From Sphyrna mokarran (lineage: Eukaryota), in assembly GCA_024679065.1 (NCBI GenBank), contig JAGIQG010000031.1:17608001-17672000 (forward strand): 64,000 nt of DNA, read 5' to 3'. The notes beneath the pieces were generated by a model. That model was given only the letters and a program-made list of their open reading frames with translations, was not told the origin of the DNA and did not search any database. The first letter of the stretch is position 1. Each line of letters starts with the position of its first letter. Made by a program: the position numbers and the translations under genes. Shown here piece by piece: positions 10,348 through 14,344 of this stretch.

Positions 10348-10420
10348 TCACTGTATCCATCAGATTCTAGACAGTGTTAATCATATTCACCAACATGACA
10401 TAGTACACAGGGACCTGAAG
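10348..10420 (+). CDS. CAMK2B: CAMK2B exon 6a (73 nt, gamma-like alternative): (S)[24 protein letters not shown]
   Basis: Boundaries ttttacag|TCACTGTATC...GACCTGAAG|gtcagt; long pyrimidine tract upstream; HRD motif intact; phase 2 to 0. Confidence 0.92.
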
Positions 10421-11311
10421 GTCAGTATCTTCTCACCTTTACAGAAATGAAGAAAAAGACCAAAAAAAATAAAATAATGATACGCTTGAGTCTAAAATCA
10501 TGTCATGTTTACAGGTGCAGAGTTTATTCTGCCTCTTATCGTTCGTCCTCTTTTGTGTCGTTATTTTACATTTTTTTGAAAAGACTTACTTTGCATGGCT
10601 ATCACTACCATTCCGAAAAGTCTCTTGGGTATTCAGCCGTGACAGGCATTCGAAAGCAAATTGATGGGGTATAACAAAATAAGGATCAATGTTACTTGTG
10701 TCTCCAACCACCCAACTCCCTTCTGCTTTTGTGATGCTTCCATCACCTTGTATGCAAGGTAAAAAAAAAAGAATTTGTGTTGCAGTGAAAACTTGCTGCG
10801 CATATTGGAAACAGTATGCCCACCCTCCACAAACTTGTATGTGTTTAAAAGAAAAATGTTGTTCTGGAAAGCATTACCCCTCATGACCTTTGAGACTTCA
10901 AGGGCACGATTGCACTTCCACCCCTCCTGTCCTTCTTGAGTCTGTCATGCTTTATTGCTCTTGACAATGTTCTTTAAGAGAAGCACAGACTGGTTTATGG
11001 CCAGGGCCAAGCATGAGCATGGAACCACTTCCACTTCCTCGTGGCAGCTGCAACAATCTCAATTTCAACCAATTGCTGATATCAAATGAGCAGGGATTAC
11101 AGGGTCATTACGGGGTTCTGCCTGCAAGGAACTTAGTCTCAGCTTTGGAGCCAGAATGCAGACTGTTGTAGATCAACCGTAGGATTGGCCATCAGGGCAT
11201 AGGCCAGCAGTAGTGTCAGATACAGGCAACTAAGGTCGAGGTTGAGTTTGGACTGCAGTCAACTGAAGTTCAGTAATAGTGTTAGCCTGCAGGTCATTGA
11301 AGATTAAGCAG

Positions 11312-12155
11312 TGTGTTACTCCAAGGCGTTTTATGAAGTCAGACATAAATCTTTGAATTGGTCTTGGGTAAGCATATAATGGTTCACTCCTGATATGGTT
11401 CAAGTGATCCACCAGGAAGCTTTCATCAAACAAAGTTTATTAAAGAATGCAGTTGAACTAAAATGAAAAAAAATCAGCAATAATTTTTACCAATTACAAA
11501 AACACAACATTACATATATAATGTAACATTATATAAACATTATATAAATCTTAACAGCTAAATTTACTGTTCCAAATTAAATAAGCTCCGTGAACATAAG
11601 CTCTGTTCTAGGTTTGGGACAGAAAGCAAGTATGCTCACATGATGTTGGACCTTGCAGTTTTCCAATCCCTGCTGTGGATTACTGCTTTTGAATATTGAA
11701 TTGAAACGGGAAAGCTTTCCAGCTCTGCAAGTTTCAGCACACTTCAAGAGATAGAGAAACTACTTCCCTTTAGCTTCTAGCTAGCCAGCCACTGACAGCG
11801 AATTGTCAATCCCGAAAAGAGAGACAAAATACACTGCTTTCAGCCCGCAGTCCAAACAGCTTCTGCCAAAATGAAAAGAAAACTTCAGGATTTCTTCAGA
11901 GGATAAAAAAACTATCCGAAGGCACCTGACCTGTCAGACATTCTTCAGCTAACAATTCCGAAAGGGTCATAAAACTCCAAGACAATGCATGAGGCCCAGA
12001 TTAAAAATAAACAAAATGACCATTACATTGCTTCAGCAACAATTACGTGACACTGGCTCAGGCTGCATAGCATTGAAATAAAAATAACCAGCTGGCTTAA
12101 AAAAACTGGAGAAACATGGTTAAAATAGATTTCTTGAAGGCACAGTAGCATCACA
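11312..12155 (-). mobile_element. Possible solo LTR
   Basis: ~844 bp bounded by TG...CA (tgtgttac...catcaca); imperfect 4-bp flanks gcag/gctg; minus-strand AATAAA near 11436-11441; no coding remnants. Confidence 0.4.
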
Positions 12156-14271
12156 GCTGGGATTGACCTTCAGGAGTATAAACTTACTATTGTCAGCTTT
12201 GAGAGGGCTAACACAGGGATGTGCTAGAGGGCAAAGGCTGCATTTTTGGAACTTGAGACCAGCAGTTGACATTTCACAGATCAAAACATTGGTACCATCT
12301 CCTCAGCTGAGGCACTTCCATCACCAGCAGAAAATAAATTTGTCAAGCCAATCGTTTTCTTCTGTTAAAGTGTGATTGTTTTTTGACATGGGATACATAA
12401 TGCCCTGTAAATAATGCCTAACCACACTCAGCTTACAGGAGTTGAGCACATCATATTGCTGTGGGAAAGGTTATAACAATTTTTACAACGCTAACTCTTT
12501 TATTGACGAGTATGACAGATTATATTCCTTCCACACCTGCCAGTATGAACAATTCTGGTTCTTCCTCGTATAAATGTTGTTCATTATAAGAACAATAATT
12601 TTTTTTTGTTTTCTCTTGGTAATATTTGAGAGTAAATTAGTATTTTCGAGGATCTGATGATCCTCTCCCTGTCCATGATCAGTAATCGAAGTGGCTTTGC
12701 TCCATGTAAAGTCTTCCTGAGGCCAGTTGTCTTTCACTTCCTATTGCTAAAGTCTCTCAGCCTTTATTGGTCTCATTCATGAGGAGTCCAGCAAGTGCTT
12801 GGAACAGTCCTTCTCCCAGTGGACGTCCCCTAGTTTGATGCCTTTGGTAAAAATGGTTGAAGTTGTTAAATAACCACCAAGGGTCATGGCATAGTCTCCA
12901 AGCAATTGATTATATTTTTGCAATAGCAAAATACTAAGTTGAGTGTTGAAAACCCATTTGGATAAACACGGTTGTTAATCCTCTGTCTAGCTTTTTGGAC
13001 CATAAATATTCTGTGGTGTCATGGCAAATTAATTTTCACAGTTTCCAAAGACACTTATAACTATTTATTTCACCCATTATGCATATTTTTTCAGAGTCAA
13101 TGACACAGCATGGTGTGATTATGAAATCATGGCTACGCAATTCATAGAAACAATTTATTCTGAAGAAAAGATTCTTATGACACCTGGTCTCAGTGGGGTA
13201 TCATTTGAACTCTCTGGGTCTTGAATTGGCAGTGAAGCTTGATTGGAGGTAATAGCAGCCGTCTAAGAACCATTCAATAGATTAACAAAATTTGTTTCAA
13301 ATAGCTGAGGAACCACAGGAGGAACAGAGAAGTCACTGAAAAAGGCACAAGTTTCAAATTGGTTTGTATCAAGTGATTGGGACTGAGCAGTGTTTGGAGC
13401 TTAAGATGAGCAGTTTCTGAAGCCCTGTGATAGATGAATAAATTTTGGTCCCGCAAGTCTTTATCACTGGATTTATGCTGTCATTCTGATTTATGGCTGA
13501 GCTTCTCTGCTCTAATGCGGATTCTGCCGTGTGTCATAAAATTTACTTCAGTGAGCTGTAGTAGTCCCAGAAGTGTGGAGTAGAATGGATCATATCCGAG
13601 CTCTATAGCGAACGATGTGCCAGGTTTCAACTTTGATTCCTGCGCCTTCATTCTGATGGGATGACTATTCAGTTTGGTTTGGGTCTATGTACGATAAGTG
13701 ATGGAAAATGAGTCCGCTTTGCTCGGGCCAAGTGGTGAAGGAAGTCGAGGAGACGGGAATCCAGCAGCAGTGAGCTTGGGTTTCAGGTGGTCCTTCTTTC
13801 CATAATTACCTTCTACTGCCACTAGAGAGTGAGGCTATCAAGCAGGTTGGCTGTGGGTCTTAATTTCAGACCAGGAACAGCACTTAGGACTTAGTGCTTG
13901 TGTGTGTGTGTTTAATTACTGTGTTTGGTCTATGAGTCCCTTCCTCACAATAATGAAAATAACCATTTGAAACAAATCCCACATCAGTTGAAAACTACAT
14001 CCATGGGATGTCCATTTCATTTGGAATTAAAGCAATCCAGTGACAAGATTCGGCTGATTTTACCCCCAACTTCCCAGCTCAGCCATTGAGAACAATTCGA
14101 GAGAAAGGTGTTTCTGTTGCGGTTTGCCTGCTGGATTGAGCCAGCTCTCGGTTACTCCTGCTTTGCCCTGGCCTGGCATTTTGCTGAGATTTGTTTTTTT
14201 GAGAGAGAGCGCCAGTCTGTGCCATGTGAGACTCACCTGCAACTAACACGCCCCCTGGTGTTTGCATGCAG

Positions 14272-14344
14272 TCATTGCATTCAACAGATCCTGGAGGCCG
14301 TACTGCACTGCCACCAAATGGGTGTTGTTCATCGAGATCTTAAG
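14272..14344 (+). CDS. CAMK2B: CAMK2B exon 6b (73 nt, alpha/beta-type): (S)[24 protein letters not shown]
   Basis: Boundaries ttgcatgcag|TCATTGCATT...GATCTTAAG|gtgagt; ACTAAC branch point at 14242-14247; phase 2 to 0. Confidence 0.96.

What the first reader, a model, noticed from the sequence alone, without database searches (positions are those of the whole stretch)
10348..14344. Two intact, mutually exclusive copies of kinase exon 6 in a CaMKII beta gene
Seen in sequence: two 73-nt exons with the same phase (2 to 0), canonical splice sites and an intact HRDLK lie 3.85 kb apart between exons 5 and 7. They differ at 8 of 24 residues over helix E and the catalytic-loop approach. Since 73 is not a multiple of 3, including both or neither breaks the frame, so only one-of-two splicing gives a kinase. 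Established: CaMKII splicing diversity is mainly described in the linker, and an alternative exon 6 is reported for CAMK2D. I do not recall one for mammalian CAMK2B. Inference: this gene makes two catalytic-domain isoforms by a regulated switch, with NMD removing mis-spliced products.
Basis: partly seen in the sequence, partly recalled or inferred. Interest (0 to 1): 0.85.

Follow-up and report, generated by a model that had tools for sequence, protein, structure and literature searches.

The report
Twin kinase-core exons in CaMKII beta
This cartilaginous-fish gene for the calcium-signalling kinase CaMKII beta carries two old, intact versions of one catalytic-core exon, only one of which fits the reading frame at a time; public gene models show the second version in fish, reptiles, marsupials and platypus, and placental mammals have likely lost it.

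Summary
Confirmed. CAMK2B has two 73-nt copies of exon 6 (16/24 residues identical). Either alone keeps the frame; both or neither gives an early stop. This genome's four CaMKII genes split the pair: beta and delta keep both copies in the same order, alpha only 6b, gamma only 6a. Copies group by type, not by gene, so the duplication likely predates the four genes. The pair is homologous to the published CAMK2D 6A/6B switch. An exon 5-6a junction appeared in 4 of 4 laid runs, though paralog contigs are not excluded. RefSeq models show both forms in sharks and reptiles. A changed, then frozen, 6a occurs in squamates, alligator, platypus and marsupials; none of 120 listed hits was placental or avian. 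Selection most likely works by protein-controlled acceptor competition plus nonsense-mediated decay: a 48-nt block before 6b, with an RBFOX-type site, is shared with delta. Steric and minor-spliceosome mechanisms are excluded, and no shared RNA duplex was found. Ten literature searches found no description for CAMK2B. This scan already reported it in another shark genome. Verdict: new member of a known kind.

The parts
447..512 (+). CAMK2B exon 5 (66 nt), common upstream exon
   Evidence: joined to 6a in 4 of 4 runs
10270..10347 (+). 6a acceptor: 76-nt AG-free zone, long C/U-rich tract (42 pyrimidines in 50), no consensus branch point within 120 nt; alignable to the gamma exon 6 acceptor
   Evidence: beta-gamma alignment score 91 vs maximum 73 of 200 shuffles
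10348..10420 (+). Exon 6a (gamma-like type), H115-K138 in the numbering of shark beta P0036: helix E, short strand, catalytic loop
   Evidence: secondary structure from the homologous delta exon in PMC5740500 EV4
10421..10428 (+). 6a donor; first 8 nt identical in beta, gamma and delta a-type exons
10592..10597 (+). RBFOX-type hexamer 172 nt downstream of 6a (delta has one at +90, not aligned); weak candidate activator
   Evidence: the motif occurs 12 times in 25 kb, so chance is not excluded
14226..14271 (+). Conserved 6b acceptor block: consensus branch point at -26, short interrupted pyrimidine tract, RBFOX-type hexamer at -9; shared with delta, absent from alpha
   Evidence: 85% over 48 nt with delta, E 1e-6; score 76 vs maximum 46 of 200 shuffles, alpha not above shuffles
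14272..14344 (+). Exon 6b (alpha/beta-like type), 24/24 aa identical to mammalian beta exon 6
17667..17769 (+). Exon 7 (103 nt), common downstream exon; its acceptor has A at -3 as in gamma and delta, C in alpha
22768..36743 (+). Exons 8-12 (22768-22851, 30305-30399, 32773-32895, 33372-33455, 36701-36743), carrying the beta-type residues used to assign the gene

Best explanation
This CAMK2B gene holds two intact copies of kinase exon 6, only one of which fits the frame at a time, and it likely makes two full-length kinases that differ at 8 residues in helix E and the approach to the catalytic loop. The duplication likely arose before the four vertebrate CaMKII genes did: delta and beta kept both copies, alpha kept 6b and gamma kept 6a. 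The choice is probably made by RNA-binding proteins acting on two competing acceptors (about 0.6). An RBFOX-type site overlapping the weak 6b acceptor would repress 6b and leave 6a as the default in muscle and other non-neural tissue (about 0.4). Transcripts with both or neither exon carry early stops and would be removed by nonsense-mediated decay. The swap probably tunes the kinase rather than switching it off, since HRDLK is unchanged. The exon was retained in most vertebrate lineages and likely lost in placental mammals.
For: SHOWN. Frame logic. Four loci with pattern a+b, a+b, a, b, and no relic above shuffles of the missing exon in gamma or alpha introns 5 and 6 (12 of 12 tests). Identity a-a 58-65/73, b-b 57-62/73, a-b 42-48/73 over all 15 pairs. 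Conserved intron block before 6b in beta and delta but not alpha; five teleost ab initio models (four beta, one delta-type) read through that intron end into the same 7 residues as the window (5 of 11 inspected). Exon 5-6a joint, GT..AG, in 4 of 4 runs from four organisms and four studies. RefSeq beta isoforms of both types in the same species: Carcharodon, Stegostoma, Scyliorhinus torazame, Mobula, Hemiscyllium; Pelodiscus, Dermochelys, Crotalus, Lacerta, Podarcis. One amniote 6a peptide is identical in squamates, three marsupials, platypus and alligator. LITERATURE. Human delta uses one or the other exon 6 and human beta has a single exon 6 (10.1101/721589). Mouse heart and soleus use only 6A; olfactory bulb uses about 10% 6B (PMC12060085). 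The delta event is dated to at least Chordata (PMC9741552 table S2). INFERRED: RBFOX role, NMD, tissue pattern, kinetic effect, placental loss.
Against: The 5-6b, 6a-7, 6b-7 and 6a-6b junctions were not tested with reads, so exclusivity in this gene is not directly shown. The laid runs are only guessed to be RNA and held 0.21-0.36 of the 3' UTR words, so they are probably relatives. At the 85% threshold the gamma (89.2%) and delta (85.6%) junctions could also be laid. RefSeq X isoforms are predictions, not experiments. 8 of 349 beta-marker proteins start inside 6b, which may reflect leaky double inclusion. A table in PMC5740500 (EV6) labels the human delta 6A-type exon as the brain-skewed one, opposite to the mouse long-read result. 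Placental loss rests on absence from 120 listed of 7993 scored hits and on human annotation; no placental DNA was searched. The third-position excess in 6a (14/18 vs 24/54, P=0.016, post hoc) is also seen in exon 5 and not in 6b.
Confidence: 0.85

Rival explanations
1. 6a serves mainly as a poison exon: it is included together with 6b to lower CAMK2B levels through decay, and the 6a-only protein is minor.
For: Double inclusion gives a stop at the end of 6b. 8 of 349 beta-marker models begin at the Met inside 6b. 6a-6b joints were not tested.
Against: A poison exon needs no conserved peptide, yet 6a is 24/24 identical between sharks and teleosts and keeps frame and HRDLK in all variants seen. 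277 of 349 beta-marker proteins carry a single a-type exon, although the searches were biased towards 6a.
Confidence: 0.06
2. Exclusivity is enforced by competing RNA duplexes (docking site and selector), as an earlier scan note proposes for octopus CaMKII.
For: A lead from e1-8666958. One delta intron-end pair beat 25 of 25 shuffles. The beta 6b acceptor and 6b donor pairing was matched by 13 of 200 shuffles.
Against: None of 10 intron-end pairings in beta beat shuffles (best 3/25). The delta pair is not echoed in beta (17/25). The conserved acceptor block has no long-range partner better than shuffled blocks in either gene.
Confidence: 0.05
3. Beta acquired 6a later by copying or gene conversion from gamma, independently of delta's pair.
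For: Beta 6a is closest to gamma exon 6 (65/73 nt, 22/24 aa), and their acceptor tracts align.
Against: Delta has the same order, the same 8-nt 6a donor and the same 6b acceptor block. One ancestral pair with two losses is simpler. Beta-gamma closeness is expected if they are sister paralogs (recalled, not tested).
Confidence: 0.05
4. 6a is a dead relic or an assembly artefact.
For: No same-species RNA was available.
Against: The copies differ at 31 of 73 nt, so this is not an assembly duplicate. The exon is intact across jawed vertebrates, and a junction is seen in contigs.
Confidence: 0.01

Closest known systems
Mammalian CAMK2D exons 6A/6B (6v1/6v2): PMC12060085, 10.1101/721589, PMC5740500 cluster 2205, PMC9741552
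   Same: Same exon, length (73 nt), phase (2-0) and order. 6b peptide identical. Shared 6a donor and 6b acceptor block with this genome's delta gene.
   Different: Different paralog. Beta 6a is gamma-like (22/24 with gamma, 18/24 with delta 6a), so the two forms differ at 8 residues rather than 5. The spacer is 3851 nt vs 912 nt. The exon is not in human CAMK2B annotation.
CAMK2G and CAMK2A single exon 6
   Same: Gamma exon 6 is the a type and alpha exon 6 is the b type.
   Different: Each has one copy and no detectable relic of the other. They look like the two splice choices frozen into separate genes.
Tandem duplicated exon substitutions (mutually exclusive homologous exons) kept exclusive by frameshift and NMD, as classed in PMC5740500 and PMC9741552
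   Same: Homologous, equal-length neighbours inside a folded domain, with length not divisible by 3 (60% of human clusters).
   Different: Nothing in kind. The lineage pattern (kept in marsupials and platypus, apparently lost in placentals) is the unusual part.
JNK (MAPK8/9/10) exons 6a/6b
   Same: Either-or exons in a kinase domain, shared by paralogs (recalled; seen only in a search listing, and a scan note).
   Different: The scan note places those around a U12/U2 hybrid intron; all donors here are major-class GT sites.

Membership tests
CaMKII beta (CAMK2B) | Kinase, regulatory and hub exons of CaMKII with beta-type residues | tested here: met
   100% to RefSeq beta isoforms over exons 5-10 and 12; best PDB match is the beta holoenzyme for P0036; hub exons lie downstream on the same contig; the three other loci match delta, gamma and alpha
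Mutually exclusive homologous exons | Two adjacent homologous exons of the same length and phase, with canonical sites | tested here: met
Mutually exclusive homologous exons | Each exon alone gives an open frame; both or neither do not | tested here: met
Mutually exclusive homologous exons | Each exon is spliced in transcripts | tested here: inconclusive
   5-6a joint in 4 of 4 runs with a paralog caveat; 6b junctions not tested with reads; both forms present in RefSeq models
Mutually exclusive homologous exons | No or rare joint inclusion in mature mRNA | not tested
   6a-6b junction not examined; shown for mouse and human delta only
Mutually exclusive homologous exons | Both exons conserved across species | tested here: met
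   (protein level; dN/dS not computed, no orthologous DNA held)
CAMK2D-type 6A/6B pair (common origin) | Exons cluster by type across paralogs and share order and flanking elements | tested here: met
Steric-hindrance exclusion | Donor to branch point under about 50 nt | tested here: not met
   about 3825 nt in beta and 885 nt in delta; criterion
U2/U12 incompatibility exclusion | One minor-class splice site | tested here: not met
   All donors are major-class GT sites; the U12 consensus is recalled
RNA-duplex (docking/selector) exclusion | Conserved competing duplexes | tested here: not met
   two genes only, no covariation test
RBFOX-regulated exon | Binding and response to RBFOX | not testable with these tools
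   Only the conserved hexamer is shown; its label and positional rule are recalled

The most novel reading that the evidence does not exclude
A kinase-core splice switch in CAMK2B is the normal vertebrate state and was lost on the placental mammal stem (perhaps separately in birds). In amniotes its 6a form changed at 6 of 24 residues and then froze from lizards to opossum and platypus, implying a distinct, undescribed CaMKII beta catalytic isoform. Human alpha/beta and gamma kinase domains are then partly the two ancestral splice forms fixed in separate genes.
Probability: 0.6. Interest if true: 0.6.

Novelty: new member of a known kind. Interest (0 to 1): 0.45.

Why it matters
CaMKII splicing is studied almost entirely in the linker, and the physiological role of the delta 6A/6B switch is stated to be unknown (PMC12060085). 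Seeing the same switch in beta, with alpha and gamma fixed on opposite choices, gives a natural set of matched kinases for asking what helix E variation does. It also points to one 48-nt element shared by beta and delta as the control site. It means that zebrafish, lizard, turtle and opossum CAMK2B work should consider an isoform that mouse and human appear to lack. It explains database mislabelling of beta-6a proteins as gamma or delta. It is not a new mechanism.

Tried and rejected
Single-sequence AlphaFold of P0036 failed (mean pLDDT 36.9) and was not used; secondary structure was taken from PMC5740500 EV4 instead. Rfam scan of window 1-20000: 0 matches. RNA duplex tests were negative. A hairpin between the 6b acceptor region and the 6b donor was not significant and is not shared with delta (13/200 and 75/200 shuffles). 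Relic searches in gamma and alpha were negative. PTBP1 repression of 6a through its C/U-rich tract was considered and set aside, because single-exon gamma has the same tract. Sequencing-run search: no holder on record as RNA was listed. Contig depths cannot rank the two exons. Literature searches found no paper on a CAMK2B exon 6 pair; most hits were seen as listings only. PMC8327911, PMC4801060 and PMC3896118 (passages) treat only linker exons. The Sloutsky and Stratton 2021 review was not held, and subscription papers on zebrafish CaMK-II genes were not searched; either could mention the exon. Scan look-ups by sequence, by relatives and by a second word set returned nothing.

Full report
OBSERVATION. 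The window holds exons 5 to 12 and some linker exons of a CaMKII gene on the + strand. Between exon 5 (447-512) and exon 7 (17667-17769) lie two 73-nt exons, 6a (10348-10420) and 6b (14272-14344), both AG/GT-bounded with HRDLK intact. They share 42/73 nt and 16/24 residues. Either alone keeps the frame through exon 12. Both together stop at the end of 6b, and neither stops 19 nt into exon 7; both stops lie far upstream of later junctions.

WHICH GENE. Window exons match RefSeq shark and ray CAMK2B isoforms at 100%, so this is beta in a cartilaginous fish. The own genome has four CaMKII loci by three independent queries. By exon 6 and marker residues, compared with the human exon list in 10.1101/721589 and PDB chains, C1 is delta, C905 gamma and C446 alpha.

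ORIGIN. Delta has both exons in the same order, gamma has only the a type, and alpha only the b type. No relic of the missing exon scored above shuffles in 12 of 12 tests. Over all 15 pairs, a-a identity is 58-65/73, b-b 57-62/73 and a-b 42-48/73. The simplest reading (inference) is one duplication before the four genes arose, with opposite losses in alpha and gamma. This agrees with the 'Chordata' age given for the human delta event (PMC9741552 table S2). By hand count, both delta exons are 71/73 identical between this genome and human, whereas the exons that are single in human are 58/73 (beta), 60/73 (gamma) and 60/73 (alpha). This fits splicing constraint on alternative exons and its release after loss.

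CONSERVATION OF BETA 6a. The 6a peptide is 24/24 identical in beta isoforms of 14 named sharks and rays, 2 more and 8 teleosts with the beta exon 8 marker. A chimaera fragment has it too, labelled gamma-like. An ab initio skink model holding both copies revealed an amniote 6a that differs from the window's at 6 of 24 residues and from 6b at 9. Searching with it returned identical peptides in squamates, three marsupials (Macrotis, Monodelphis, Notamacropus) and platypus, forms with one or two changes in turtles, and an axolotl variant. An alligator beta fragment has it too. None of the 120 listed hits (of 7993 scored) was a placental mammal or a bird, although the list reached down to teleost forms about 90% identical over the 40-residue query. 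Human CAMK2B is listed with one exon 6, and CAMK2B does not occur in the ten readable supplements of the human MXE survey, which include its 1,399 validated exons. Two files there, including a large table, could not be read. Placental loss is therefore likely but untested on DNA; the bird case is open. Of 388 proteins fetched, 349 carry the beta marker: 277 a only, 51 b only, 13 both (read-through models) and 8 starting inside 6b. The searches were seeded with 6a, so these are not usage ratios.

TRANSCRIPT EVIDENCE. Runs were found with the 3' UTR region (24 listed, none on record as RNA, 18 guessed RNA). Four were laid on window 300-12000. All 4 show a GT..AG joint from the end of exon 5 to the start of 6a (1, 1, 2 and 2 contigs; four organisms, four studies). 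At the 85% threshold the gamma and delta junctions (89.2% and 85.6% alike) could contribute. No differences in these exons appeared among the rows shown, but 912 rows were hidden. Junctions involving 6b and exon 7 remain untested with reads. RefSeq models give both forms in five cartilaginous fishes and five reptiles checked; these are predictions.

HOW THE CHOICE IS LIKELY MADE. Steric exclusion fails (donor to branch point about 3825 nt), all donors are major-class, and no duplex is shared by beta and delta. Of the beta-delta intron alignments, the one at matching gene positions with a clear score is a 48-nt block ending at the 6b acceptor (85%, E 1e-6; 76 vs at most 46 in 200 shuffles). It holds a consensus branch point at -26/-27, a weak pyrimidine tract and an RBFOX-type hexamer at -9 in both genes, and alpha, where 6b is constitutive, lacks it. 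Five teleost models read through this intron end into the same 7 residues as the window, so the block is kept there too. RBFOX sites upstream of an exon usually repress it (recalled). That would fit mouse delta, where heart and soleus use only 6A and olfactory bulb about 10% 6B (PMC12060085). A table in PMC5740500 labels the tissue skew the other way, and I could not resolve this. I put protein-controlled acceptor competition at about 0.6 and RBFOX specifically at about 0.4, with NMD as an inferred filter.

PROTEIN EFFECT. The exon encodes residues 115-138: 16 helical residues, a turn, a short strand and the catalytic loop (mapping of the delta exon to 2WEL; numbering). Six differences lie in helix E, one at its end and one in the strand; HRDLK is constant. 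PMC9741552 notes that part of this region lies next to the ATP site in delta. Tuning of activity, stability or partner binding is likely; none is shown. My structure prediction failed.

KNOWN VERSUS NEW. The delta pair is published. The beta pair is in public gene models, but ten searches of the open library found no paper on it. Papers seen: PMC12060085 (passages and Discussion), 10.1101/721589 (passages with exon lists), PMC9741552 (passages, one supplement row), PMC5740500 (passages, section 7, supplement rows), PMC8327911, PMC4801060, PMC3896118 and PMC9252440 (passages). The Sloutsky and Stratton review was not available. This scan reported the same pair in another shark genome (e1-9902536); the short text shown mentions fishes only, so the amniote, marsupial and platypus data here extend it. 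Verdict: real, a new member of a known kind, interest 0.45.

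Noticed in passing
window 17664-17666 and the matching acceptors in C905, C1, C446: The exon 7 acceptor has A at -3 with a weaker pyrimidine tract in beta, gamma and delta (the genes with 6a) but C with a stronger tract in alpha. A weak common acceptor may be part of the switch.
   Followed up: partly
P0127, P0140, P0143, P0145, P0150, P0159: RefSeq beta models that begin at the Met inside 6b; they may come from double-inclusion or intron-retaining transcripts.
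   Followed up: no
P0054, P0069, P0170, P0180 and others: Beta isoforms with 6a are named gamma or delta in RefSeq although they carry beta markers.
   Followed up: partly
window 4546-4724: An imperfect palindrome of about 180 nt (78% self-complementary) in intron 5, in a stretch matched by very many contigs in all four runs; probably a mobile repeat.
   Followed up: no
window 8874-9900: A repeat with very high contig coverage; 239 nt of it match delta intron 5 at 88%.
   Followed up: no
window 40877-40975, 46381-46422, 53947-54012: Linker exons matching shark beta isoforms; the first appears in a 24-residue and a 33-residue form, suggesting an alternative donor.
   Followed up: no
G000:C894:17715608-17718735: Hub-domain exons of this gene lie about 44 kb beyond the window, with a separate 3' UTR exon further on.
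   Followed up: partly
P0133 (Amblyraja), P0003-P0008 (Dunckerocampus), P0310 (Ambystoma): Beta 6a varies between lineages (13 variants among the listed peptides) while 6b is nearly invariant (60 of 61 copies identical).
   Followed up: partly
scan note e1-8666958: Octopus CaMKII is reported to have two either-or exons with an RNA duplex; whether it is the same exon 6 duplication was not determined.
   Followed up: no
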